Assembly (NCBI GenBank): GCA_045544995.1
Contig: JAZQAE010000119.1
Location: 1,857-65,856, forward strand
Direction: 5' to 3'
Origin: Eubacteriales bacterium
GTDB lineage: Bacteria; Bacillota; Clostridia; Oscillospirales; QAKW01
Length of the DNA stretch: 64,000 nucleotides
In this document: piece after piece, positions 2,626 through 13,817 of the stretch
Position numbering within the stretch: position 1 is the stretch's first letter
Layout: each line of letters starts with the position of its first letter
Position numbers and translations under genes: made by a program
Notes under the pieces: model-generated
What the model was told of the DNA's origin: nothing
Seen by the model: only the letters and a program-made list of their open reading frames with translations
The model's database searches: none

Positions 2626-2722
2626 TAGGTACTGATATATCTGCTCATATGGAAATGGTTACTCAAATTGACAAAAGAAAACAAGAAAACTACTGCGATC
2701 GCAAGATTTTTGCTGAAAACTG

Positions 2723-2751
2723 TTGAGATGTGCGATCAGATGTGGTATATT
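2723..2751 (+). promoter_or_regulatory. sigma-A-like promoter for the HTH controller/methylase operon
   Basis: TTGAGA, 17-nt spacer, TATATT, with a TG extended -10. Confidence 0.45.
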
Positions 2752-2798
2752 AGAAATAATGATACTATTTGAAAATAAAAACTATTTTGAGGTGTATT

Positions 2799-3008
2799 AT
2801 GGCTGCAAGTTACAAGAAGTTATTCAAACTCTTAATCGACTGCGATATGAAAAAGAAAGATTTGGCGGAGAAAGCTGGTGTCAGCATCGCCACCATTACC
2901 AAAATGGGCAAAGACGGCGCCGTTGTCTCAAGCGACGTTCTCGTTAAAATCTGTTCTGCTCTTTGCTGTACAATGGATGATATTGTTGAAATTGTGCCCG
3001 AGAAATAA
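2799..3008 (+). CDS. XRE/Cro-type HTH protein, controller (C-protein)-like
   Basis: MKKKDLAEKAGVSIATITKMGKD helix-turn-helix. About 69 aa. Sits directly upstream of the methyltransferase. RBS gaggtg. Confidence 0.75.
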   Translation: MAASYKKLFKLLIDCDMKKKDLAEKAGVSIATITKMGKDGAVVSSDVLVKICSALCCTMDDIVEIVPEK

Positions 3009-3070
3009 CTGTCCGTTTTATGGGACGATAAAGCTATTATAATTTTTCTGTAAAATGGATGAGGTGTATT

Positions 3071-4384
3071 ATGGGAACCTATAACTTTAGATTTATTGAT
3101 TTGTTTTGTGGTATCGGCGGCTTTCATCAAGCCATGACCCCTCTTGGAGGCAAATGCGTATTTGCCAGCGATATTAACGAACAATGCCGTGAGGTATACA
3201 AAAAGAATTTTGCTCCAAACGACGAATTTGTCGTATATGGAGACATCAACAAGGCCATCAAAGAAAAAGTGATTCCAGAGTTTGAAGTGTTGTGTGGCGG
3301 CTTCCCCTGCCAGACATTTTCAAAAGCAGGAAATCAGAATGGTTTTGAAATTGTTGAAAAAGTAAACGGACAAAAAGATGAACGCGGCCAACTTTTTTAT
3401 CGTATTATTGATATTTTAAAAGAACACCCGGAATGCAAATATGTCGTTCTTGAGAATGTAAGAAATCTCGCAGATAAAAAAGATAACTGGGATATCATTT
3501 GCAAAGAACTTAAAGAACAAGGGTTCATAATAACCGAAGAACCAATCATTGAATCCCCGCATCATTTTGGTGTTCCGCAAGTTCGTGAACGAGTGTTTAT
3601 TCTTGGTGTCAGAGAAGAAGCTTTTGACGGCAGAAAAACACTTCCCAAAGGCTATTTGACAAGAGATATTCTCGGCATTGATGAACAAGTTAATAGATGC
3701 CCGGAAAAAGGTAATTGCTTGCCTGATATTATGGAAAAGAATGTCGATTCCAAATACTATGTTGCAGAAGAAATAGAAAAACTTTTGGAAGCGTGGGAAG
3801 AATTCCGCGCAAATGTAAAAGGTTTGTGCAGTCCCTTCTGGTTACACAAGGCGGGCATTGGCATCTATGATCGCGAACAATATTATCGTGATGAAAAGAT
3901 TGGCTATCAAGATATGCCAGAGTGGAAGAAAGTAATGGTAATGCGCAGTCGTGTTATGTACGAAAACAATTCCGAGTTTATCGATGCTTGGATTAAAAAA
4001 CACGATATGCAAGCCAAGATTTTAATACATCAAAAATTCGAGTGGAACTGCGGAAAGGATTGTAAATCTATAAAAGACGGTATTATCCAGATCCGTCAAT
4101 CCGGAGTACGTGTAAAACGCCCCAACTATTTCCCGTCACTTGTCGCAATGAATAATACTCCAATTATTTGGGATGAAGAAGTATGCAAATTTAGATACTT
4201 CACGCCAAAAGAGTCTGCAAAGTTGCAGAGTTTTAAGGAAGACTACTTGTTTAGTGAATTGGATGTTGTTACATACAGACAGCTGGGTAACTCTGTAAAC
4301 GTTAAACTAGTACGGATGTTTGCTGAATCGCTATTCAAATTCGGCAAAAAGAGCACTCTTACAGGAGGTAAGAAAAATGGCTAA
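3071..4384 (+). CDS. DNA (cytosine-5)-methyltransferase
   Basis: Motif I DLFCGIGGF, motif IV GGFPCQTFS, ENV, QVRERVF and motif X QLGNSVNV are all present. Confidence 0.95.
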   Translation: MGTYNFRFIDLFCGIGGFHQAMTPLGGKCVFASDINEQCREVYKKNFAPNDEFVVYGDINKAIKEKVIPEFEVLCGGFPCQTFSKAGNQNGFEIVEKVNGQKDERGQLFYRIIDILKEHPECKYVVLENVRNLADKKDNWDIICKELKEQGFIITEEPIIESPHHFGVPQVRERVFILGVREEAFDGRKTLPKGYLTRDILGIDEQVNRCPEKGNCLPDIMEKNVDSKYYVAEEIEKLLEAWEEFRANVKGLCSPFWLHKAGIGIYDREQYYRDEKIGYQDMPEWKKVMVMRSRVMYENNSEFIDAWIKKHDMQAKILIHQKFEWNCGKDCKSIKDGIIQIRQSGVRVKRPNYFPSLVAMNNTPIIWDEEVCKFRYFTPKESAKLQSFKEDYLFSELDVVTYRQLGNSVNVKLVRMFAESLFKFGKKSTLTGGKKNG

Positions 4385-5990
4385 ATTTAATTTCTCTGAG
4401 TTTTTTTCGAAGCAAAAAAACGTAACCGCCACTGATGATGGAGATTTCGAATTAAATATTCAACCTCAAGCAAGCGTATTGGGCGTTTTTTCCCGACTTA
4501 ATTACAAGGCATGGTATGCTATCGCTGAGTTTGTTGATAATTCCACAGAATCGTTCTATTCTAACGAATCCGAATTAAAAGCAAATGGAATCTCTACCGT
4601 AACTGTCAACGTCAATTATGATTTTGAAAAGAATATTTTGACAATAACAGACGATGCATTTGGCATGGAACTGGAGGACTTTTCTCGTGCAGTTTTGCTT
4701 GATTCAAAGCCCGAAAGACAGGGTGGTAGAAACGAATTTGGCATGGGATTAAAAACGGCAGCCAGCTGGTTTGGTAATGTTTGGTCTGTGACAAGCACGC
4801 AGTTTGGTTCTACAAACAAGTATTTAACTGAAGTTAATATTCAAGAACTTAAAGAGAAAAAAGCGAACACTGTAAAAATCAAAAAAGAAACCTGTTCAGA
4901 AACGGAACATGGCACAACCATAGTTATTCGCGATGTGACAAAGAAAATAGATGCTGCTCGTACTAAGGGTAAGATCATTCAACTTTTGGAAAGTATGTAT
5001 CGTCGTGATTTGAATTCTGGAAAAGTTAATATTTGGTTTAATGATTTATCTCTTCATTTCGATGAATATGGATGTTTGCAGTTTAGAGAAAAAACTTGGA
5101 AAAAGGAATTGGATTTCGATTTTGAGTTTGACGGAGAAAAACATCGTGTTACCGGATTTGTGGGTATTCTCGCAAACGGTGGATTTGGTAAGGCTGGATT
5201 TGCTTTGTTCAGACGTGGACGTGTAGTTGTAGGTGGCGAAGATCAAAACTATAAACCCGAATACATATTCCATCAAGCTCAAAGCCCCATTTCCCACAAA
5301 TTATTTGGCGAACTTGATTTAGATGATTTTCCTGTAAACCAAGCTAAAGATGGTTTCGTGTGGGATGACGGTTTGGAAATCGTTTTTCTAGAGACGCTAA
5401 AAAGCAATATTCAAGAATATATCGACATCGCAAAAATGACCAACAAGGAAAGAGCCAAAGAGGAGGAGTTTTCTCAGGCGTCTTCGAAAACGGTCGAGGA
5501 AAGTGTACAATCCTTTGCTAATGCGTTATCAAATGCAAATCAATCTACAGAGTCTAAAAACGATGACACAAAAAGCGAAGAACCGGCAAATAGCAATAGC
5601 GAAATAGCGCAATTTGAAGAGTATTTGCACAACACAAATAGTACTGAAGAGAAGATTGTTGGCGATAAAAGAAAATATCCTATCCAGATAAACGAAGCCA
5701 TCAAAAAGAATTTTGTTGTTGAATGGTCTATTGGAAACAAAGCTTACTGGATCAACGTTGAAGAGTCCGAAGACGGGCAAGAAGTATACATTATAATTAA
5801 CATAAATCATCCGTTCTTCAAGCCTTATACCAACAACGAAGATTTCAAGATTGTCCTTGAAAAGTTTGTGATTTCCTTCGTTGTGGCGGAACAACAAGCA
5901 AAACTCACTTCCGACAAAGATGGATATATTCGTGCGTCCACTATTCGTCATAAGATGAATGAATTTTTGTCTAAAGTATCGGAGGATTAA
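4377..5990 (+). CDS. GHKL-superfamily ATPase (HATPase_c_3, MutL/MORC-like)
   Basis: Bergerat-fold motifs AEFVDNSTES (N-box), ITDDAFGM (G1) and EFGMGLKTA (G2). The start overlaps the methylase stop codon. Confidence 0.85.
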   Translation: MAKFNFSEFFSKQKNVTATDDGDFELNIQPQASVLGVFSRLNYKAWYAIAEFVDNSTESFYSNESELKANGISTVTVNVNYDFEKNILTITDDAFGMELEDFSRAVLLDSKPERQGGRNEFGMGLKTAASWFGNVWSVTSTQFGSTNKYLTEVNIQELKEKKANTVKIKKETCSETEHGTTIVIRDVTKKIDAARTKGKIIQLLESMYRRDLNSGKVNIWFNDLSLHFDEYGCLQFREKTWKKELDFDFEFDGEKHRVTGFVGILANGGFGKAGFALFRRGRVVVGGEDQNYKPEYIFHQAQSPISHKLFGELDLDDFPVNQAKDGFVWDDGLEIVFLETLKSNIQEYIDIAKMTNKERAKEEEFSQASSKTVEESVQSFANALSNANQSTESKNDDTKSEEPANSNSEIAQFEEYLHNTNSTEEKIVGDKRKYPIQINEAIKKNFVVEWSIGNKAYWINVEESEDGQEVYIIININHPFFKPYTNNEDFKIVLEKFVISFVVAEQQAKLTSDKDGYIRASTIRHKMNEFLSKVSED

Positions 5991-5993
5991 TTC

Positions 5994-8138
5994 ATGGAAA
6001 AATATACGTTTGCAACGACAGACGAAAATGACGTTTCTGTAAAATTAGGAGATTATTATAACCAAGTTCATGCTAAGCATATCGATGCTTATGGCCAACT
6101 TGGAGCAGATAACATTGTTGAAAACATCGTAGAAACATACAGACAAATTCAGATGCAAATGAGCGCAGATAACAAGAATAATAATGTTTTGCTTGTTGGT
6201 AAGGTTCAATCTGGTAAAACCTCTAATCTAGAGATGCTCACAGCATTGGCTTTTGATAATGGCTATAATATTTTGGTTATTTATGGCGGCTACGACACTA
6301 GTTTGTTAAAACAAACCACAGACAGATTTAAAGAAACCTTTGATGTTACTGGCGAAGTGACTTATGACGATGAAGGCCCCGCTATATTTACAACAGATGA
6401 TAGCACTCAGATTTTAAGCATAGATGATGAAATAATGACCGATCTTTTGGAGAATAACAAACCTGTTATTTTTGTATCTATGAAACGTCCAGTGGCTATG
6501 CGAAAAATCAACGCTTTGTTCAAGCGTCTTGACAAATCAGAATTTAAAGCTTTTATCATTGATGATGAGGGCGATCAGGCTAGTTTAAATACAGCCAAAG
6601 ACAAAAAAGAGAATGCTTCCGCAACCTACAAAGAAATTGTTGAGATGAAGAATTTGCTTGAAGATCCGATGTATCTTTCGGTTACTGCCACACCACAAGC
6701 CAATATTTTCTTGGATGAATGGAGTGCTTTACGCCCGGATTCTATTCGTCTAATTCAGCCAGGAAAAGGATATGACGGCGCAGAGGTGTACCACTTATAT
6801 GAGAATGATATTGTAACTTTGGTGTCAGAAGAGGATCATGCGGAATTAGCAGATGGAAAAATACCTGAATCTCTTTGGGAGGCTGTACGTTACTTCATCG
6901 TAGCAAGTGCTATTAAATGTAAGCGTGCCACAAAAACAAAAGAGCGCTTCAGCGATATGATCGTGCATGCGTTTCGTGAGGTGTTGCAACATAGTAGCAT
7001 CTATACCTCTATAGAAAGTTATATCGATTGCCTGAAGAACTCCTTTGAGTATGAGGATGACGATATGGAGGGCTATTTGCTAGAATTTGAAAATTGTTTC
7101 AACAAGTATGTCTCTGATGAAATTAAGTCATCCTTTACTTTTGAGGAGATTAAATCCGAAGTCATCACCGTTGTCAGAAAAACCAAAGTCATATTAAAAA
7201 ACGGAATTGGTAAAACAACCCAAGGCAACGAAAAACTCAAGTGGCATAAAATTTATATTGGCGGAGATTTGTTACAAAGAGGATTGACGTTTTCTAATTT
7301 GATAACTACTTATTTCACTCGCTGGGCTACTGGCGGTGGAAATATGGACACGAATTTGCAACGAGCTCGTTGGTTTGGATATCGTAGTAAATACATCGAT
7401 ATTTGTAAAATTTTCACCACTTCCGAAATAGCTCAAGAATTCACTAATCTTGCAGAAATCGAGGATGACTTGTGGGATCAATTTGCAGATGTTGAGAATG
7501 GTGTGTTAGCAATTGACGATATTCTTATTCAGTCCGAAAAAACCAAGCAAAGTCCCACTAGCAAACAGCGCGTAAACTATGAGAAAGTATCTTTTAAGAA
7601 TCGTTGGTTAAAACAAAGATTCTTGGTAACTGACGAAAACAAAATTGCTGAAAACGACAATAGAATTAAGGCTTTAATAGATTCAGTACAGTGGGAACCT
7701 ACAACTGCCGGAAGTAAAATAGGTGCGAAAACAGCTCAATACGCCTATTTTGATTCCAAGACATTGAAGGATCTTATCAACGTAATTTATGGCGTGTTTG
7801 ATTATGAACCTTTCCAAAAGAAGGCTCTAACAGATCTTTTAGGCCAAGATAACATTCCCGTTATTTTAATGGGCGCTGATAAAGAGCCGCGTAAGCGTAG
7901 TATTTATAAGGCGGACTTTAGAATTAAAGCATTACTTCAAGGTGCCGATTCTACAATCTCCGAAAAAGTAACATACGTTGGTGATAGTGGTGTAGTAATC
8001 GATAAAGATTGTATAAACATTCAAATACACAGGGTTTTACCTCGTGAAGACAAAACAACTGTGATGAAAGAAAAAGAACAATATATGTTTGCAATCTATA
8101 TACCAAAAGAAAAAACATATTTTGTAAAGGGGAACTAG
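5994..8138 (+). CDS. Z1-domain P-loop/helicase-like ATPase
   Basis: Walker A GKVQSGKTSN, Walker B IIDDEGDQAS, SVTATP, and an arginine-finger-like QRARWFGYR. Confidence 0.85.
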   Translation: MEKYTFATTDENDVSVKLGDYYNQVHAKHIDAYGQLGADNIVENIVETYRQIQMQMSADNKNNNVLLVGKVQSGKTSNLEMLTALAFDNGYNILVIYGGYDTSLLKQTTDRFKETFDVTGEVTYDDEGPAIFTTDDSTQILSIDDEIMTDLLENNKPVIFVSMKRPVAMRKINALFKRLDKSEFKAFIIDDEGDQASLNTAKDKKENASATYKEIVEMKNLLEDPMYLSVTATPQANIFLDEWSALRPDSIRLIQPGKGYDGAEVYHLYENDIVTLVSEEDHAELADGKIPESLWEAVRYFIVASAIKCKRATKTKERFSDMIVHAFREVLQHSSIYTSIESYIDCLKNSFEYEDDDMEGYLLEFENCFNKYVSDEIKSSFTFEEIKSEVITVVRKTKVILKNGIGKTTQGNEKLKWHKIYIGGDLLQRGLTFSNLITTYFTRWATGGGNMDTNLQRARWFGYRSKYIDICKIFTTSEIAQEFTNLAEIEDDLWDQFADVENGVLAIDDILIQSEKTKQSPTSKQRVNYEKVSFKNRWLKQRFLVTDENKIAENDNRIKALIDSVQWEPTTAGSKIGAKTAQYAYFDSKTLKDLINVIYGVFDYEPFQKKALTDLLGQDNIPVILMGADKEPRKRSIYKADFRIKALLQGADSTISEKVTYVGDSGVVIDKDCINIQIHRVLPREDKTTVMKEKEQYMFAIYIPKEKTYFVKGN

Positions 8139-8139
8139 A

Positions 8140-9075
8140 ATGCTTGAAACGATAAAATGTGCGATAGTTACAACCCCAAAAGATGGCGCAATTTATTTAG
8201 TTAAAAAGTTATCTGAGAACACCGGCTTTTTTGTGACGAATGGTCATTTGTTATATCTTGTATATAACTTTGAAGACATTACGCATAAAAGTATGCAAAC
8301 AGATTACTTGTCACTGAATACCGATGTGGAAATTCACTCTTTCAAGAACAACCAAAAGTTTCCGTCTGGTAAATATAATGTTTTAGATTTTTTGCCTACT
8401 GAAAAAGGCTATGATGAAAACAATTTGGAGTCCTTTGTTAATTTATGCGTTTCTCACACGGAATTGATGGAAGGAAAATCGTTCGTGAAGTTTTTCTTCT
8501 CATTGAGTGAGTTGTTCCAGGATCCGAAAAGTCAGGAATATAAAAATCTTGTGGGCTTTTTTGGGGAATTATCCTTTTTGAAGTTTCTTTGCGAAAACAC
8601 CTCGTTAGACTTATCTGATCGCTGGCATAAGGGCGGTAGCAAAGACAAGTATGAGATTACATTAGAAACAAAGAATCTGGAAATTAAAACAACCGCAGCT
8701 TTTGATGAAGAAGTAACTATAAAGCATAGTCAGTTGTTTAATGCAGACCAGAATTATTTGGTTGTGGTTTGTATTGAGGAGAATAGCGCTGGACAAACTT
8801 TGAATCAACTCATTAGTGATATGCAGAAAGACCCAAGTCATTATAATAATTATAATTTTGCGCTAAATGTCCAACGGGAAAAAATGCGAGTGTCTCCTGT
8901 TGAAGCCGAAAGTAGGATCTTTTCTGTTAAAGGTATCGTTATTTACAAAGCAGAAGATATTGACCCGTTTGGAGAAATTCCGGATAGCGTTTCTCACCTT
9001 ACTTATAAGCTGGATTTGCTTGACAAGAAATATTTACCACTAAATTGTTGGGAAAAGGAGTTTAATGATGTTTAA
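8140..9075 (+). CDS. PD-(D/E)XK-motif (restriction-endonuclease-fold) protein
   Basis: GELSFL ... SKDKYEI ... LEIKT fits a D...ExK core. Sits 1 nt after the Z1 stop codon. Confidence 0.7.
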   Translation: MLETIKCAIVTTPKDGAIYLVKKLSENTGFFVTNGHLLYLVYNFEDITHKSMQTDYLSLNTDVEIHSFKNNQKFPSGKYNVLDFLPTEKGYDENNLESFVNLCVSHTELMEGKSFVKFFFSLSELFQDPKSQEYKNLVGFFGELSFLKFLCENTSLDLSDRWHKGGSKDKYEITLETKNLEIKTTAAFDEEVTIKHSQLFNADQNYLVVVCIEENSAGQTLNQLISDMQKDPSHYNNYNFALNVQREKMRVSPVEAESRIFSVKGIVIYKAEDIDPFGEIPDSVSHLTYKLDLLDKKYLPLNCWEKEFNDV

Positions 9076-9370
9076 GACTTATGATTTGTTTGACCATAGA
9101 AATATAAATGATCTGGTACCTGAAATAGTTTACTATTATCTATTCAAGGGATTAAGTTTAACAGCCATTGAAGTGAAATTATTTAAAACTGAAGATTATC
9201 ACGGCTGGCTTAGCAAAACCTTTCTAAATTACTATGGCATTGATACAGAAAAAGAAAACAAAGGCATTTATGCAGATAAAACGGTTCCAGAAGTGGTAGA
9301 AGAACTTTATAAAAGTTCTAATATTGCTCACGTGCGTGTTGCTAAACTCTTGAAAGAAAAGTATCTGTGA
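9065..9370 (+). CDS. hypothetical 101-aa protein
   Basis: Overlaps the upstream stop codon. RBS aaggag. No recognised family. A possible small HTH around GLSLTAIEVKLF is weak. Confidence 0.6.
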   Translation: MMFKTYDLFDHRNINDLVPEIVYYYLFKGLSLTAIEVKLFKTEDYHGWLSKTFLNYYGIDTEKENKGIYADKTVPEVVEELYKSSNIAHVRVAKLLKEKYL

Positions 9371-9372
9371 TT

Positions 9373-9786
9373 ATGATAAAAGAAGTAATTCACGATCCGA
9401 TTTTTCTTGGAGTTAAATCGGAGGCGGCGACAAAAGAAGATTTGCAGGTGGCACAGGATTTATTGGACACGTTGATTGCCAATAAGGACGGCTGCGTTGG
9501 AATAGCGGCGAATATGATCGGTGCGCGCAAGCGGATCATTGTTTTTGATAATGAGGGTACATATATGACGATGTTTAACCCTGAAATTATCAAAAAGTCC
9601 GGGCCGTACGACACTGAGGAAGGTTGTCTTTCTCTTCTAGGTGGTCCCCGCCCGTGTAAGCGATATAAATCCATCAAAGTCCAGTGGCAAACCGCCGATT
9701 TTCAAACTCGTATTAAAACCTTCACCGGTTGGTCAGCACAGATCATTCAGCATGAGATTGATCATTGTAACGGGATTTTAATTTAG
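9373..9786 (+). CDS. def: peptide deformylase paralogue (short form)
   Basis: Motifs GIAANMIG, EGCLS and QHEIDH. About 137 aa. Starts 3 nt after the upstream stop codon. Confidence 0.85.
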   Translation: MIKEVIHDPIFLGVKSEAATKEDLQVAQDLLDTLIANKDGCVGIAANMIGARKRIIVFDNEGTYMTMFNPEIIKKSGPYDTEEGCLSLLGGPRPCKRYKSIKVQWQTADFQTRIKTFTGWSAQIIQHEIDHCNGILI

Positions 9787-9798
9787 AGGTGTACCCAC

Positions 9799-10665
9799 AT
9801 GAACAAAAAAGCCATAGAGAAGTTTCATAAAACTTGTATAGAATCGAACACTGTTGAATTGGAAAGATTATGGAATAATGCATCTCCAAAAACATTGGTG
9901 AAGTTCTATCCAGCTCGGTATTTACCTGATGGTCATAATTATTCTGTGGACAGCATCATTAATAAAAAATTATGGATTTCTTCTCCTCGACAGTTTAATG
10001 ATCCTTTTGACAGTGTGATGAATATAGATTATCGACCTGAATTATCGGTGCTAGCATCGCAAGTTATGGTAGACTTATTTGGAGAACAGAGGGCTCATGA
10101 ATTGATGGACACTTCCATCTTTAAAGCTGCGATTCAGTCGGCACATATACAAATTCAAACCGGATTGGCTCAACGGAATTCAGAAATAGAACAAGGCGTT
10201 TTAGTTTCATGCTTTACAGAAAAAGAGAATATTAGTTCCACATGTATGTGGGCGCATTATGCCGATAACCACTCTGGATTTTGTGCGGAATTTGAATTTA
10301 ACGATATCAAGAATGTTGGTGATTACGGTTGTCTTCCAATTAAATACTCAGATGAGTATATTTTACATGACAACCCTTCCTCATTGCAGGAGGGTATAGA
10401 GTTTTTGTTAAATTTAGTTTTCACGAAATCTAAATCGTGGAAAAACGAAAAAGAATGGAGAATCATACGGCTTCAAGAAGAAGTCAATAGCAATGGGGAA
10501 TTGATTGATTTTGTCTTGCCAAAGAGTATTTATTTGGGCTGTAAAGTTAAAGATAGATTAAAGAAAGATCTTTGCTCATTCTGTCGTGAGAATAAAATAC
10601 CAATATATCAAATGAGTTTAAAACCGGGAAGTTTTAATATAAAAAAAGAAAAACTCGATGTTTAA
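9799..10665 (+). CDS. DUF2971-family protein
   Basis: MWAHYADNHSGFCAEF is the signature block I associate with DUF2971. RBS gaggtg. Confidence 0.7.
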   Translation: MNKKAIEKFHKTCIESNTVELERLWNNASPKTLVKFYPARYLPDGHNYSVDSIINKKLWISSPRQFNDPFDSVMNIDYRPELSVLASQVMVDLFGEQRAHELMDTSIFKAAIQSAHIQIQTGLAQRNSEIEQGVLVSCFTEKENISSTCMWAHYADNHSGFCAEFEFNDIKNVGDYGCLPIKYSDEYILHDNPSSLQEGIEFLLNLVFTKSKSWKNEKEWRIIRLQEEVNSNGELIDFVLPKSIYLGCKVKDRLKKDLCSFCRENKIPIYQMSLKPGSFNIKKEKLDV

Positions 10666-11030
10666 TTTCAAATTGCGTACCATATAAACGACAATATACG
10701 ACAAAATTAGCAACAAAGTGGAGGATGATTTCGAAACAAAAATGCGAGATTGTCCTTTTCGCTTTTATATTTTTATTTGCAGATCTTCACTGTTTTCTAT
10801 TTGAATGGTGGTAATGTTCAAAACTTTAACAATGAAAATATATGAATGATATATGAAAAACATATGTAATCAAAATATTTAAAAGAATAGCTTGAATCTT
10901 AACATTTATTGGGTTATATTGAGCAATTTCATAAATCAAACAATTGATTTTCTCCATCAACGAAATATTTAAACGCTCAAGAAAAAATGCGTATGTTTTT
11001 TATATGTTTTGAATATATCTCGCTTTTCTA

Positions 11031-11059
11031 TTGACAATAGCGCTTCTTTGTACTATAAT
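11031..11059 (+). promoter_or_regulatory. consensus sigma-A promoter
   Basis: TTGACA, 17-nt spacer, TATAAT, about 30 nt upstream of the 11090 start. Confidence 0.55.
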
Positions 11060-11089
11060 ATAGGTGTAAAATTATATTGAGGTGGTATT

Positions 11090-11461
11090 ATGGAATTTAA
11101 TTTCGACTTTACCTATCTTAAAAATGGCGCTCCGATAGTGACTTTGAGCTCATTGGGTATTGCATTCAATAAAGGTGCTGTTGATTTACTTGGCGCTCCG
11201 GAACAAATCAATGTTGGCTTTGATGAAGAAAAATGCGCCATAGGTGTCCGCAAGCATGATCCAACCAGTAATGCACCCGTTTATGATTTCGCTTCACGTG
11301 TAAAAAATGATTGGGTTCGCATTGGAGCCAAGGATTTTATGCGCTATTTATCAAAGGTAAGCAGAATTGATTTTCTAACAAAAGCTAAGCAATTCCTTCC
11401 TGAATTTGATGAGAACACAAAAACCTTAATCATTCAGGTTGATGAATTGCATGCTAAATAG
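11090..11461 (+). CDS. hypothetical 123-aa protein
   Basis: RBS gaggtgg. Own promoter and terminator. The N-terminal beta-rich VTLSSLGIAFNKGAVDLLG segment is vaguely AbrB/SpoVT-like; this is a weak resemblance. Confidence 0.65.
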   Translation: MEFNFDFTYLKNGAPIVTLSSLGIAFNKGAVDLLGAPEQINVGFDEEKCAIGVRKHDPTSNAPVYDFASRVKNDWVRIGAKDFMRYLSKVSRIDFLTKAKQFLPEFDENTKTLIIQVDELHAK

Positions 11462-11482
11462 GTACAAAACAGAAAAAGAAAA

Positions 11483-11525
11483 AAGCAATATTTTACGACT
11501 GGTACTCGTAAAATATTGCTTTCTG
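11483..11525 (+). terminator. probable terminator
   Basis: 15-bp stem aagcaatattttacg / cgtaaaatattgctt. Short T-run. Confidence 0.55.
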
Positions 11526-11687
11526 TGCCAATGCAAAGAACAACGGAACGATACTTAGCATTATTTCAACACATGATAATAATATCACGTTTTGATTTTT
11601 TTTGCAAGAGGGTTTATTTTGTGTTAATGATTCTTTTTGGCACAATATCTTGATTCTGTTTGTAAATAAATTTGAAAGGTGATTTTT

Positions 11688-12593
11688 ATGAAAATCAGAA
11701 AAACAATAATTCGAAACCCAGAACCATATCTTGCAGAAGTTGGAGTTGGCGAAGACTTCTATGTAGTTGCCGTAAATGTTTCTACAAAGAAGAACATTTT
11801 CGAACGATATGGGCTATCCACTGACGGTAAACTGAGGGTACCGATTGGCAGAGGTAATGCAACTCGTTTTAATGCAGATGGTAAGTTTGTAGTCAACCGC
11901 AAACTACCCAAAGTAGAAAAAGTCTTTGAACGTGCGTATCATATCATAGATTGGCACGGTGACGATCACTACGGAACGTGCTTTCAACGACGTATGTGTT
12001 ATCAAAAGGATTATATTTTTCCTCCTAATGTTGGCTTTTTCTATGAAGAGAACTGCTTATTTTCGGAGAAAATGAATAACACAGCCAACAATTATAAAAA
12101 CATCAAATCAGCAATTAATGTTGCCTTAGAGATGTTTGGAGAGTGTGAAATATGGTCGAAGGATAAGTCACCTATTATCCCTAACATACCTGAAATAACC
12201 GTCCCGTGGGAAATACTTCGCAAGGGGACCAAAGATTCAGCTGCTTGGGATAAATATTTAAATAACACCCTAAAAGGGAAAACCAAATCGCAGCAAACAA
12301 TAATTCGTAATCGCCACGAATTCATTCATGATTTAAATCCTAGCTATAGGGTGTTAGGTTCACAGAATTTTTATGGCTATGTTGTTTACGCGTTTGAAGA
12401 TGAAAACCTTTTCGTTTTTGAGTGTAATAGCATAAATAATGCCACTTACTTTTTCAAGGGCGATTGGAAAGAAGTTTCGCAATTAAGTAAGACACAAATC
12501 TTAACTGGGAATCTTCAGTACGCTCGAGTTTTTCACACTGAAAATTGGCGTGAGAAAGTTGAAAAACTCATTCTCTCCAAAAAGGAGGTGTAA
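11688..12593 (+). CDS. hypothetical 301-aa protein
   Basis: ATG after aaaggtga. No family recognised. Confidence 0.7.
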   Translation: MKIRKTIIRNPEPYLAEVGVGEDFYVVAVNVSTKKNIFERYGLSTDGKLRVPIGRGNATRFNADGKFVVNRKLPKVEKVFERAYHIIDWHGDDHYGTCFQRRMCYQKDYIFPPNVGFFYEENCLFSEKMNNTANNYKNIKSAINVALEMFGECEIWSKDKSPIIPNIPEITVPWEILRKGTKDSAAWDKYLNNTLKGKTKSQQTIIRNRHEFIHDLNPSYRVLGSQNFYGYVVYAFEDENLFVFECNSINNATYFFKGDWKEVSQLSKTQILTGNLQYARVFHTENWREKVEKLILSKKEV

Positions 12594-12595
12594 TA

Positions 12596-12820
12596 ATGGG
12601 TAAGAATCAACATGTTACTCATCGTCCCGATGGAAACTGGCAGGTGAAAGGCGCAGGAAATTCCAAGGCTACATTTATAACCTCAACGCAAAAAGAAGCT
12701 ATTAAAATAGCCACCGGAATTGCTAAGAGCCAAAAATCCGAACTATTAATTCACGGAAAAAACGGAAGAATTCGAGAAAAGAATTCGTATGGCAACGATA
12801 ACTTTCCGCCGAAAGGATAA
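12596..12820 (+). CDS. DUF2188-family small protein
   Basis: HVTHRPDGNWQVKGAGNSKA...TQKEAI..A..IA.....ELLIHGKNGRIREKNSYGND.FPPKG matches the DUF2188 pattern. RBS aggaggtg. Confidence 0.8.
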   Translation: MGKNQHVTHRPDGNWQVKGAGNSKATFITSTQKEAIKIATGIAKSQKSELLIHGKNGRIREKNSYGNDNFPPKG

Positions 12821-12889
12821 GTTAAAGCAAAAACTGTTGTGTACCAGGCAACACTTCCTGCTTTTTAACGGCACCCAATAAGGACTGAA

Positions 12890-12932
12890 CATCTCCGCAT
12901 AACATATTCAAATGTTATGCGGAGATGTTTTC
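12890..12932 (+). terminator. rho-independent terminator
   Basis: 16-bp stem catctccgcataacat / atgttatgcggagatg followed by tttt. Confidence 0.75.
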
Positions 12933-13028
12933 TTTCACCCTTTTTCACATTCTTTCGACAAAAAAGTACGTTTTATCGTACACTACTTATTTTATAATAG
13001 AATCATAAAATAAAGGAGTGTGATAAAA

Positions 13029-13817
13029 ATGTCAAAAGATTTACTTGCCATGGACCGATTGACGACGATGGAGGAACTGAAAAAGTTCTTTAAGGAGAAC
13101 GACTGGACGAGCATGAAGATGGATGACCCGGCTCAGAGAACGGCGGAGGAACGGGCCGAGGTTGCGTATGTAGTCGGTGTAATGGACAAGGAGTTTGAAA
13201 AGCAAGCTCGTAAGAAGGGACGGAAATCTGCCAAGAAGTATTACGGCAAAGATAATCCGTTGATTGCTTTGCAGACAAATACCGAGGATTTGGTTGCGAG
13301 CGCGGTCGTTAAGATTGCCAACGATGATGCGTTGTTAGACGGTGTTCTCTCGCAGTTTGATTTCACCGATCCGGATCTTGACAAGAAAGCGGACGCGTTT
13401 TTGCACAACGCGGTGGATACGATGCTCAACGTAATGGATTACGAGCAGATGGCAGCGATCATTCACGAGGATTCCAGCGAAGAAGATTTCAACACCAGCA
13501 TCGAAAACAACTTCCGATACAAAGATCACATTCGCCGTGTGGAACATACCGATGCGAAAACCGAAAACATTCTCTGCCCTGACCCAGAAGCCAAACTTAG
13601 AGAAGCAGAAACTTCAGTAGAGGATGAAGCGTTGCAAAACGTTTTGGCAGAACAGTTTATGGCAACGCTTGACGAAACCGATAAGAAAATATTCGCGATG
13701 AAACGCCTTGGCTACACGCAAAAAGATATCGCCGAAGCGGTTGGGTTTAGCGGTAATGCAGCCGTTTCAAAACGGCTCGCCATCATGAAAGAAAACTTCC
13801 ATAAAATGCTCCAATAA
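13029..13817 (+). CDS. sigma-70 region-4-like HTH protein (MGE regulator)
   Basis: C-terminal KKIFAMKRLGYTQKDIAEAVGFSGNAAVSKRL resembles a sigma region 4 / LuxR-type HTH. Confidence 0.65.
   Translation: MSKDLLAMDRLTTMEELKKFFKENDWTSMKMDDPAQRTAEERAEVAYVVGVMDKEFEKQARKKGRKSAKKYYGKDNPLIALQTNTEDLVASAVVKIANDDALLDGVLSQFDFTDPDLDKKADAFLHNAVDTMLNVMDYEQMAAIIHEDSSEEDFNTSIENNFRYKDHIRRVEHTDAKTENILCPDPEAKLREAETSVEDEALQNVLAEQFMATLDETDKKIFAMKRLGYTQKDIAEAVGFSGNAAVSKRLAIMKENFHKMLQ

What the first reader, a model, noticed from the sequence alone, without database searches (positions are those of the whole stretch)
9065..10665. Three extra genes translationally fused to the restriction cassette: a 101-aa protein, a short peptide-deformylase paralogue and a DUF2971 protein
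Seen in sequence:
- The 101-aa ORF overlaps the PD-(D/E)XK gene by 11 nt.
- The deformylase-like gene begins 3 nt after that ORF's stop codon.
- DUF2971 follows 12 nt later with its own gaggtg RBS.
- No terminator appears before the AT-rich gap at 10.67 kb, so all eight genes from 3071 to 10665 read as one transcription unit.

The Def paralogue is short (about 137 aa). It keeps the metal ligands (EGCLS, HEIDH), but motif 1 reads GIAANMIG, where canonical deformylases have a Gln (G-x-G-L-A-A-x-Q).

A housekeeping-type enzyme family embedded in a defence-type operon next to DUF2971 (a family that recurs in accessory islands) is unusual. Possible roles: an effector or sensor acting on nascent or formylated peptides, an anti-anti-defence function, or an independent passenger module. 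I know of no described system with this composition.
Basis: partly seen in the sequence, partly recalled or inferred. Interest (0 to 1): 0.62.

Follow-up and report, generated by a model that had tools for sequence, protein, structure and literature searches.

The report
Three separate modules, not one add-on
The three genes behind the restriction cassette are real and tightly packed, but comparison with relatives shows they have separate histories: a small protein that belongs to the cassette, a widespread short "second" peptide deformylase, and a known type of single-protein anti-phage gene that travels with that deformylase.

Summary
The three ORFs, their spacing and the deformylase motifs are confirmed. 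The reading "one eight-gene system" is not.

2. **The 137-aa deformylase** is an ordinary member of NCBIfam NF006670:
   - The family is short, ends in Ile137 like phage Vp16 PDF, and always has Met in place of the motif-1 Gln.
   - It is patchy (63 of 301 genomes of the order), intact in 86 of 86 loci, and under strong purifying selection (dN/dS about 0.07).
   - Its neighbours vary widely. At least about 15% of them are defence genes.
   - Homology with sister elements stops exactly at its start or stop codon.

3. **The DUF2971 protein** matches PADLOC PDC-S31 and belongs to the family of the validated Aristaios abortive-infection protein. All four close homologues tested (49-87% identity) directly follow the same deformylase. 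Only 1 of 86 deformylase loci holds a DUF2971 gene.

The window is therefore a mosaic joined at the deformylase gene. Whether the deformylase and DUF2971 work together remains open.

The parts
3059..9075 (+). [not shown]
   Evidence: Pfam and PADLOC hits. Relatives L089-L096, L187 and L097/98 have the same gene order.
9068..9370 (+). [not shown]
   Evidence: No hit in Pfam, NCBIfam, PHROGs or PADLOC. It sits directly after a DUF4420-cluster gene in 64 of 72 loci. It is 96% identical to L091 where the enzymes are 77-89%, and 80% identical to L097 where they are 34-54%. The AF2 model has pLDDT 79 and no PDB fold match.
9373..9786 (+). Short accessory peptide deformylase of the NF006670 / PRK09218 type. 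It is 137 aa, has motif 1 CVGIAANMIG (Gln replaced by Met), motif 2 EGCLS and motif 3 QHEIDH, and ends in Ile137. Its GC is 0.437, higher than both neighbours.
   Evidence: DNA homology to L089-96 ends at its stop codon. Homology to L191-197 begins at its start codon.
9787..9798 (+). 12-nt spacer. Its GAGGTG ribosome-binding site overlaps the deformylase stop codon. The junction is conserved in L191, L194, L196 and L197.
9799..10665 (+). DUF2971 protein, 288 aa. It matches PADLOC candidate PDC-S31 and belongs to the family of the Aristaios abortive-infection protein, a predicted DarT-like ADP-ribosyltransferase. Invariant residues are FNDP66-69, W151, Y154, Y183, W214 and E217-x-E219-x-R221.
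   Evidence: The AF2 model has pLDDT 94.7. Literature: PMC11381338 and PMC12522546.
10744..10762 (+). Terminator-like hairpin followed by a T-run. It is the probable end of the transcription unit and is conserved in relatives.
11031..11059 (+). Consensus TTGACA-17-TATAAT promoter of the next unit (p123 - p304 - DUF2188). That unit travels with the deformylase-DUF2971 pair in L191-L197.

Best explanation
The stretch 9065-10665 is a junction of separately inherited modules. They are packed head to tail in the cargo region of an integrative, probably mobilisable, element in a ruminant-gut Oscillospirales genome.

**Module 1: p101 belongs to the restriction cassette.**
- It is the cassette's fifth and most conserved gene.
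- It is translationally coupled to the DUF4420 nuclease gene.
- It is most likely a small accessory or regulatory subunit (inferred).

**Module 2: the 137-aa deformylase is an autonomous accessory gene of family NF006670.**
- It is a minimal, Vp16-like metal-dependent deformylase. It has all metal ligands and the catalytic Glu, and the family-wide Met in place of the motif-1 Gln.
- It moves horizontally, is kept under strong purifying selection, and needs no particular neighbour.
- I infer that it supplies a second deformylase activity, possibly inhibitor-tolerant. This would resemble other accessory deformylases on mobile elements, which protect against natural deformylase inhibitors.
- Because the gene is so conserved, it also marks the point at which flanking cargo is exchanged by recombination (shown by the homology breakpoints).

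**Module 3: the DUF2971 gene is an Aristaios / PDC-S31-type single-protein abortive-infection effector.**
- It is a predicted ADP-ribosyltransferase.
- It occupies the cargo slot directly after the deformylase gene.
- In this lineage it has been inherited together with the deformylase as a two-gene unit ending in a conserved terminator.

All eight genes are probably read through from upstream promoters (inferred from spacing). That is shared expression, not a shared mechanism.
For: **p101**
- It directly follows a DUF4420-cluster gene in 64 of 72 metagenome loci.
- It stays with the cassette when housekeeping genes follow instead of a deformylase (L097/98).
- A deformylase follows it in 1 of 67 loci.
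- It is more conserved than the cassette enzymes.

**Deformylase: family and conservation**
- NF006670 scores 191.5 bits against a cut-off of 162.
- N47-M48, EGCLS and QHEIDH are invariant in 86 of 86 sequences.
- The same signature occurs in Lachnospira eligens, Limosilactobacillus fermentum and Pusillibacter faecalis.
- It aligns co-linearly with the 137-aa Vp16 PDF (residues 22-137 to 22-137).
- The C-terminal Ile is conserved in 84 of 86 sequences. In Vp16 PDF that residue compensates for the missing C-domain (PMC5591237).
- It is intact in 86 of 86 loci, with median dN/dS of 0.07.
- It is present in 63 of 301 genomes of the order and in 2 of 10 sampled congeners.
- The genome also has a canonical def gene with GLAAPQ.

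**Deformylase: neighbours and breakpoints**
- Neighbours are hypervariable.
- Many neighbours give strong PADLOC hits, including DruB, GajA/B, Old, AriA, DRT, type I and II restriction enzymes and PDC families.
- All close relatives (88% identity or more) sit in defence hotspots of mobile elements.
- Homology to L089-96 stops at the deformylase stop codon. Homology to L191-197 starts at its start codon.
- L089 carries an apparently mosaic, frameshifted copy, and L090 carries a copy with a premature stop.
- GC is 0.437, against 0.314 and 0.344 for its neighbours.

**Deformylase: function**
- Accessory deformylases on mobile elements confer actinonin tolerance (PMC12690207).
- Acquired second deformylases block prophage induction triggered by deformylase inhibitors (PMC12157366).
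- TipAS, rhodanese, NUDIX, GNAT and MATE-efflux genes recur beside this deformylase.

**DUF2971**
- PDC-S31 matches at E = 4.8e-49 over the full length.
- Aristaios is a validated single-gene DUF2971 anti-phage protein.
- The Tyr and ExE motifs reported for the family are conserved.
- The cargo slot after the deformylase holds SIR2, an RT plus ATPase, HNH, DUF5677, Dcm plus GHKL, or PycTM in sister elements.
Against: - **Deformylase-DUF2971 linkage.** The pair is more persistent than a random cargo slot would predict. All four close DUF2971 homologues tested (87, 68, 65 and 49% identity) directly follow the 137-aa deformylase, although their outer flanks differ. Two other DUF2971 subfamilies lie next to a deformylase (L052) or one gene away from it (L181-186).
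- **Deformylase-cassette linkage.** The cassette-p101-deformylase order is kept in at least 10 diverged contigs (about 78% nucleotide identity).
- **Enzyme activity is unproven.** The motif-1 Gln is near-universal in single-copy deformylases. Accessory 'type 3' deformylases of S. aureus and S. pneumoniae are reported inactive (PMC12690207).
- **No known resistance signature.** The actinonin-resistance change R97Y is absent. The equivalent position reads Pro92/Arg93 by alignment.
- **ART fold not reproduced here.** Foldseek against the PDB gave no significant match for the DUF2971 model.
- **No transcript data**.
Confidence: 0.62

Rival explanations
1. The deformylase and the DUF2971 protein form a functional two-gene defence module. 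The deformylase-like protein would act as regulator, sensor or antidote for the ADP-ribosyltransferase-like effector. For example, it could read the formylation state of nascent chains during infection, or hold the effector in check.
For: - All four tested close homologues of this DUF2971 (49-87% identity) are directly preceded by the 137-aa deformylase at 1-12 nt, with unrelated genes further out.
- The junction and the terminator after DUF2971 are conserved.
- Other DUF2971 subfamilies occur beside a deformylase in L052 and one gene away in L181-186.
- An earlier unverified note describes a SIR2/DUF2971 pair next to the same deformylase in another genome.
Against: - By a family HMM, only 1 of 86 deformylase loci has any DUF2971 gene within 10 kb.
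- Deformylase alleles of 88% identity or more precede Dcm, PycTM, HAD or other genes instead.
- The deformylase is far more conserved (89-91%) than DUF2971 (65-87%), unlike partners that co-evolve.
- None of 11 distant DUF2971 homologues in the order lies next to a deformylase.
- Aristaios works as a single gene.
- PADLOC lists PDC-S31 as a single-gene candidate.
Confidence: 0.15
2. The short Gln-to-Met deformylase is itself a conflict gene: a defence, counter-defence or establishment factor of mobile elements. It would be kept at cargo hotspots, or in the first-transferred 'leading' region upstream of MobC/relaxase, because it acts during phage attack or element entry.
For: - Strong PADLOC hits occur among at least about 24 of 155 immediate neighbours. 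From general knowledge, well under 1% of genes in a typical genome are defence genes.
- All close-clade contexts are defence hotspots bounded by DUF6809, AAA_25, MobC/relaxase or integrase genes, and are co-oriented with them.
- Deformylase inhibition is a known trigger of prophage induction.
- Phages often carry minimal deformylases.
- Several independent first-stage notes report the same gene inside defence islands (unverified).
Against: - Many family members sit among housekeeping or metabolic genes, such as PTS, YidC, ribosomal protein S9, sugar hydrolases and transporters.
- No PADLOC model covers it. The only hit is PDC-M66A at E = 0.008.
- No paper links deformylases to defence islands.
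- Co-location in islands is also what a hitch-hiking resistance-type gene would show.
Confidence: 0.13
3. [not shown]
For: - Co-directional tight packing, and no terminator until 10744.
- The cassette-p101-deformylase order is retained in L089-96 and L187.
Against: - The cassette plus p101 occurs without the deformylase in 66 of 67 sampled loci.
- The deformylase occurs without the cassette in 84-85 of 86 loci.
- The slot after the deformylase varies even among near-identical cassettes.
- The deformylase is pseudogenised in L089 and L090 while the cassette is intact.
- GC content is mosaic.
Confidence: 0.03
4. The deformylase is a catalytically dead or decaying passenger with no function of its own.
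For: - The motif-1 Gln is lost.
- Accessory type 3 deformylases are reported inactive.
- Pseudogene copies occur in L089 and L090.
Against: - It is intact in 86 of 86 loci.
- The stop codon lies exactly after residue 137 in 84 of 86 loci.
- dN/dS is about 0.07.
- The metal ligands and catalytic Glu are invariant.
Confidence: 0.05

Closest known systems
NCBIfam NF006670 (PRK09218) 136-aa 'peptide deformylase' of Firmicutes, the second PDF of many Clostridia and Lactobacillales
   Same: - Scores above the curated cut-off.
- Same length.
- Same GMAANMIG motif 1, EGCLS and QHEIDH.
- Same C-terminal G-[IV]-x-I.
   Different: Nothing at sequence level; it is an ordinary member. What is not part of the family description is the setting: this clade sits on integrative elements between swappable defence cassettes.
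Phage Vp16 PDF (PDB 5mtc), the smallest active deformylase (PMC5591237)
   Same: - 137 aa, with no ribosome-binding C-terminal helix.
- The chain ends in Ile137 directly after motif 3.
- Alignment is co-linear, residues 22-137 to 22-137.
   Different: - The match is weak (E = 2e-11).
- Viral deformylases are described as fully conserving the three motifs. This family has Met in place of the motif-1 Gln.
- This gene is carried by a bacterial integrative element, not a Vibrio phage.
Accessory deformylases on mobile elements: Def2 of Vibrio cholerae and integron-cassette PDFs (PMC12690207); OrdE and acquired second PDFs (PMC12157366)
   Same: - A second, horizontally mobile deformylase beside a canonical one.
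- The proposed benefit is tolerance to natural deformylase inhibitors and to the prophage induction they cause.
   Different: - Those proteins are full-length, keep the Gln and carry R97Y. This one is minimal, has Met in place of Gln, and reads Pro/Arg at the equivalent place.
- The carriers here are Gram-positive integrative elements rather than plasmids or integrons.
- Activity and resistance are untested here.
Type 3 accessory deformylases (S. aureus and S. pneumoniae DefA; cited in PMC12690207)
   Same: A non-essential second copy with a substitution in a conserved motif.
   Different: - Whether NF006670 is the same lineage was not tested.
- The strong purifying selection found here argues against a dead enzyme.
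Aristaios (lactococcal plasmid single-gene abortive-infection system, DUF2971; PMC11381338) and PADLOC candidate PDC-S31
   Same: - PF11185 domain, about 290-320 aa, on mobile DNA.
- Full-length PDC-S31 match.
- Conserved Tyr and ExE motifs, as described for DUF2971 ARTs.
   Different: - Direct similarity to the Aristaios sequence was not tested.
- This subfamily is always preceded by the short deformylase.
- The ART fold was not recovered by Foldseek here.
[not shown]
   Different: - The MzaB and MzaC scores are far below the curated cut-offs (16 against 850, and 130 against 1500).
- There is no AIPR protein.
- The nuclease is DUF4420.
- There is a conserved fifth 100-aa gene (p101) for which I found no description in the libraries and papers searched.

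Membership tests
NF006670 / PRK09218 short peptide deformylase | Profile score above the curated cut-off (162 bits) over the full length | tested here: met
   191.5 bits, residues 3-139 matching profile positions 1-136 of 136.
NF006670 / PRK09218 short peptide deformylase | About 136-137 aa, ending just after motif 3, with motif 1 G-M/I-A-A-N-M | tested here: met
   86 of 86 sequences have N47-M48. 84 of 86 stop after residue 137. Members from cultured species share the signature.
Catalytically canonical peptide deformylase (motifs I-III of Giglione et al., as revised in PMC12690207) | Motif II EGCLS and motif III HExxH (metal ligands Cys, His, His plus the catalytic Glu) | tested here: met
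   E83-G-C85-L-S87 and Q126-H127-E128-I-D-H131 are invariant.
Catalytically canonical peptide deformylase (motifs I-III of Giglione et al., as revised in PMC12690207) | Motif I ends in Gln (E. coli Gln50) | tested here: not met
   Met48 aligns with the Gln in PDB homologues. The change is invariant in the family.
Catalytically canonical peptide deformylase (motifs I-III of Giglione et al., as revised in PMC12690207) | Deformylase activity / complementation of a def mutant | not testable with these tools
   Needs an enzyme assay or complementation, for example the PAL421Tr-pMAKdef strain used in PMC5591237.
Actinonin-tolerant accessory PDF (Def2 of V. cholerae type) | Tyr at the position of Arg97 | tested here: not met
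   By the HMMER alignments to PDB deformylases, the equivalent place reads Pro92/Arg93. The alignment is local, so the register is uncertain by one residue.
Pfam PF11185 DUF2971 / PADLOC PDC-S31 | Profile match above threshold | tested here: met
   PF11185 scores 39.8 bits against 22. PDLC04990 matches at E = 4.8e-49, residues 29-284 to profile positions 5-256 of 259.
DUF2971 as a DarT-like ADP-ribosyltransferase (PMC12522546); Aristaios (PMC11381338) | Conserved motif II Tyr and motif III ExE | tested here: met
   Y154, Y183 and E217-x-E219 are invariant across 46 homologues.
DUF2971 as a DarT-like ADP-ribosyltransferase (PMC12522546); Aristaios (PMC11381338) | ART fold recognisable by structure comparison | tested here: inconclusive
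   [not shown]
DUF2971 as a DarT-like ADP-ribosyltransferase (PMC12522546); Aristaios (PMC11381338) | Protects against phage as a single gene | not testable with these tools
   Needs a phage challenge.
[not shown]
   64 of 72 loci. Present with housekeeping genes downstream. The 8-nt overlap is kept.
Type II toxin-antitoxin pair (deformylase as antidote of DUF2971) | Partner specificity in both directions | tested here: not met
   DUF2971 to deformylase: 5 of 5 in the close subfamily. Deformylase to DUF2971: 1 of 86.
MZA anti-phage system | MzaB and MzaC equivalog scores | tested here: not met
   16 bits against 850, and 130 bits against 1500.

The most novel reading that the evidence does not exclude
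The NF006670 short deformylase (Gln replaced by Met, Vp16-like) is not a spare housekeeping enzyme. It would be a conserved working part of conflict islands on mobile elements in gut Firmicutes.

On this reading it is a fixed 'front gene' of an exchangeable effector slot. The DUF2971 ADP-ribosyltransferase would be its ancestral partner. The deformylase would couple the formylation state of nascent chains, or deformylase inhibition by phages or competitors, to the activity or expression of whatever effector sits behind it.
Probability: 0.15. Interest if true: 0.75.

Novelty: new variant of a known kind. Interest (0 to 1): 0.45.

Why it matters
**For annotation**
- Three different linkage groups were read as one operon-system. 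The report shows where the true module borders lie.

**For biology**
- About a fifth of Oscillospirales species carry a minimal deformylase lacking the 'essential' motif-1 Gln, yet it is under strong purifying selection.
- Its closest relatives sit at the exact recombination borders of defence-cargo slots on integrative elements.
- That makes an old question directly testable: what are the motif-variant 'type 3-like' second deformylases for? An activity assay, an inhibitor MIC and a phage or prophage challenge would address it.

**If the deformylase-DUF2971 pairing is functional**
- It would link N-terminal protein processing to abortive infection.

**If it is not**
- The gene is still a handy landmark for finding new cargo in gut mobile elements.

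Tried and rejected
**Searches that found nothing**
- p101 against Pfam, NCBIfam, PHROGs and PADLOC gave no hit.
- The p101 AF2 model against the PDB gave no fold match. Its function therefore stays inferred.
- No RNA-seq run holds the region. DNA runs hold at most 15% of its words; most are labelled bovine gut or gut metagenome.
- Foldseek of the confident DUF2971 model against the PDB returned only spurious GRP94 rows. The ART assignment therefore rests on the literature and on motifs.
- The IMG/VR scan for DUF2971 relatives found none.
- Full-text searches for deformylase with 'defense island', with 'integrative conjugative element', or with 'leading region' and 'anti-defence' found nothing relevant.

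**Ideas tested and dropped or weakened**
- *A conserved recombination site or repeat flanks the deformylase gene.* Beyond a ribosome-binding site, conservation starts at the ATG and ends at the stop codon.
- *The deformylase is a universal marker of defence islands.* The first three contexts suggested this. The 80 species-level loci weakened it: many neighbours are housekeeping or metabolic genes.
- *DUF2971 is merely random cargo in a variable slot.* All close homologues keep the deformylase upstream.
- *The 100-aa gene before the deformylase in L188-190 is a p101 homologue.* It is unrelated.
- *The promoter-like match at 9350-9377 drives the deformylase.* Its -10 hexamer overlaps the deformylase ATG, so it cannot.


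Full report
**1. What is there**

The + strand carries, in order:

| Gene | Coordinates |
|---|---|
| Dcm | 3059-4384 |
| GHKL ATPase | about 4380-5990 |
| DUF4420 nuclease | 8140-9075 |
| 101-aa ORF (p101) | 9065-9370 |
| 137-aa peptide deformylase | 9373-9786 |
| 288-aa DUF2971 protein | 9799-10665 |

- One refinement: homologues of the small ORF are 100 aa and start MFKTY. The start is therefore more likely the ATG at 9068, giving an 8-nt overlap.
- No + strand terminator-like site follows until 10744-10762.
- The block from about 2700 to 13000 has 0.31-0.39 GC, against about 0.5 in the rest of the window.
- To the right lie MobC-like ribbon-helix-helix genes, ParB and a serine recombinase. 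The setting is therefore an integrative, probably mobilisable, element.
- DNA runs holding parts of the stretch are mostly labelled bovine gut or gut metagenome.

**2. The small protein belongs to the cassette**

- p101 has no match in Pfam, NCBIfam, PHROGs or PADLOC.
- It does have hundreds of close relatives and a few dozen distant ones.
- In an independent sample of 80 metagenome loci, a DUF4420-cluster gene lies directly upstream in 64 of 72. A deformylase lies directly downstream in 1 of 67.
- It is the most conserved protein of the cassette. It is 96% identical where the enzymes are 77-89%, and 80% identical where they are 34-54%.
- The AF2 model is a small helical bundle (pLDDT 79) with no PDB counterpart.
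- I read it as a translationally coupled accessory or regulatory subunit of the nuclease. The linkage is shown; the role is inferred.
- A more distant version of the cassette (L046, about 30% identity) lacks it.

**3. The deformylase is an ordinary member of a known but unexplained family**

*Family membership and sequence*
- It passes the NF006670 equivalog cut-off (191.5 bits against 162).
- In 86 sequences the motif C-V-G-M/I-A-A-N-M-I-G is invariant at Asn47-Met48. So are EGCLS and QHEIDH.
- The same signature is seen in Lachnospira eligens, Limosilactobacillus fermentum and Pusillibacter faecalis.
- The genome's own canonical def (contig C23) has GLAAPQ and a C-terminal extension.
- The protein aligns residue for residue with the 137-aa phage Vp16 PDF and, like it, ends in Ile137. 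In Vp16 PDF that terminal Ile replaces the missing C-domain (PMC5591237).

*Selection and distribution*
- All 86 copies are intact. The stop codon follows residue 137 in 84 of them. Median pairwise dN/dS is 0.07.
- The family is present above cut-off in 63 of 301 genomes of the order, and in 2 of 10 sampled congeners. It is an accessory, horizontally moving gene under strong constraint.

*Published context*
- Second deformylases are common on mobile elements and can confer tolerance to actinonin (PMC12690207).
- Acquired second deformylases block prophage induction by a natural deformylase inhibitor (PMC12157366).
- Motif-variant 'type 3' copies in S. aureus and S. pneumoniae were reported inactive.
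- The R97Y resistance signature is not present here.

**4. Its neighbours**

- Gene clusters around the deformylase are hypervariable.
- The gene is usually co-directional and tightly spaced with its neighbours. The upstream gene is on the same strand in 71 of 84 loci, and the downstream gene in 60 of 83.
- Immediate neighbours are a mixture.
  - Housekeeping or small stress and drug-related genes: NUDIX, GNAT, MatE/MFS, AraC regulators, sugar enzymes and ribosomal protein S9.
  - Many strong defence hits: PDC-S53, S41, S11, S04 and S07, HEC-05, type I and II restriction enzymes, DruB, an RT of the DRT class, Old, GajA/GajB, AriA and PDC-S31. These cover at least about 24 of 155 neighbours.
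- In the close clade (88% identity or more), every context seen is a defence hotspot of an integrative or mobilisable element. The pattern is variable cargo, then the deformylase, then variable cargo. A conserved right border often follows: an 83-87-aa gene plus DUF6809, followed by AAA_25, MobC/relaxase or integrases.
- No conserved site flanks the gene. Conservation starts at the ATG and ends at the stop codon.
- Unverified first-stage notes from at least six other genomes describe the same Gln-to-Met deformylase inside defence or accessory blocks.

**5. The window is a hybrid joined at the deformylase gene**

*Left side*
- The window aligns with L089-L096 at about 78% nucleotide identity from the Dcm gene to the last codon of the deformylase, and no further.
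- In those sister elements the slot behind the deformylase holds one of DUF5677, HNH, an ATPase plus reverse transcriptase, or SIR2.
- Their deformylase is a different allele (68% identity). L089 carries an apparently mosaic, frameshifted copy, and L090 has a premature stop.

*Right side*
- The block runs: deformylase, DUF2971, terminator, consensus promoter, p123, p304, DUF2188.
- It recurs in L191, L194, L196 and L197 behind unrelated upstream genes. Protein identities to the window are:

| Protein | Identity to the window |
|---|---|
| Deformylase | 89-91% |
| DUF2971 | 65-87% |
| p123 | 90-97% |

- Homology starts at the deformylase start codon.
- The deformylase gene is also compositionally distinct: GC 0.437, against 0.314 for p101 and 0.344 for DUF2971.

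**6. The DUF2971 gene**

- It matches PADLOC candidate PDC-S31 over its whole length (E = 4.8e-49).
- DUF2971 is the domain of Aristaios, a validated single-gene abortive-infection system of lactococcal plasmids with a predicted ADP-ribosyltransferase fold (PMC11381338).
- It has also been classified as a DarT-like ART family with a conserved Tyr and an ExE motif (PMC12522546).
- In 46 homologues Y154, Y183 and E217-x-E219 are invariant.
- My own structural test did not reproduce the ART match. The model is confident (pLDDT 94.7), but Foldseek found nothing significant in the PDB.
- All four close homologues I could place (87, 68, 65 and 49% identity) directly follow a 137-aa deformylase. This includes L198, where both outer flanks differ.
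- A 27%-identical DUF2971 follows the deformylase in L052. Another subfamily lies one gene away in L181-186.
- In contrast, none of 11 distant homologues in the order is next to a deformylase.

**7. Reading**

  - cassette plus p101;
  - deformylase plus DUF2971, in this lineage only;
  - no conserved link between the two, apart from one element lineage.
- I therefore hold that the eight genes share transcription, not mechanism.
- For the deformylase I commit to an active or weakly active accessory enzyme. It would give back-up or inhibitor-tolerant deformylation to the element's host. Its high conservation also makes it a recombination border for cargo exchange.
  - The recombination border is shown by the breakpoints.
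  - The enzymatic benefit is inferred from conserved catalytic residues, purifying selection and the cited papers.
  - The lost Gln and the 'inactive type 3' precedent weaken it.
- Homologues of the window's own upstream TipAS and rhodanese genes recur next to this deformylase elsewhere. TipAS lies directly before it in L081. Rhodanese lies directly before it twice in L070. A rhodanese...NUDIX-deformylase array occurs in P. faecalis. MATE efflux genes lie beside it in two cultured species. This fits a drug or stress-tolerance setting into which defence cargo has been inserted.
- The main rival is a true deformylase-DUF2971 module. I give it 0.15 because the link is one-sided.
- A broader conflict role for the deformylase gets 0.13.

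**8. Verdict**

- Each part belongs to a named family, so this is not a new kind of system.
- I found no description of three points in the searches run here:
  - the position of the Gln-to-Met minimal deformylase at cargo-exchange borders of gut mobile elements;
  - the conserved deformylase-DUF2971 pair.
- Interest is moderate.

Noticed in passing
[not shown]
   Followed up: partly
window 11031-12820; L191, L194, L196, L197: The p123 - p304 - DUF2188 unit, with its consensus promoter, is conserved together with the deformylase-DUF2971 pair. p123 is 90-97% identical, and the promoter and ribosome-binding site are nearly invariant. No family match exists for p123 or p304. In L196 the unit is followed by DUF7695, a NikA-like gene and a relaxase.
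   Followed up: partly
L089 6303-6677, L090 6303-6680: In sister elements the deformylase gene is pseudogenised. It is frameshifted in L089, with a first part like the L091 allele and a later part like the window allele. L090 has an in-frame TAA before QHEIDH. The upstream cassette is intact in both.
   Followed up: partly
window 2716-2725 and 12830-12839: The 10-bp direct repeat AAAACTGTTG brackets the whole low-GC block, from the controller promoter to just after DUF2188. It has two matches in the window; 3 of 100 shuffles reach two. It could be a target-site duplication of a 10-kb insertion, or chance.
   Followed up: partly
L169 5001-6186: A diverged copy of the cassette plus p101 (74% identity) is followed after about 120 nt by a distant (24%) homologue of the window's p265 (13020-13817). 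There is no deformylase block in between.
   Followed up: no
genomes G298 (C2:91642 and 101398), G013, G184: Some genomes of the order carry two full-length NF006670 deformylase copies. In G298 they lie 10 kb apart on one contig.
   Followed up: no
L188-L190: A GmrSD type IV restriction gene is followed by an unrelated 100-aa helical-looking ORF and then the deformylase. Other small ORFs (56 aa in L005, 154 aa in L181, an HRDC domain of 134-142 aa in L003, L010 and L198) also sit directly before the deformylase.
   Followed up: partly
phage-collection records MT835506.1, MT839320.1, MT836927.1, MT835715.1: Unannotated 'Bacteriophage sp.' contigs from human faeces encode the same short deformylase at 56-71% identity. 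Whether these are true phages or mis-binned integrative elements was not checked.
   Followed up: no
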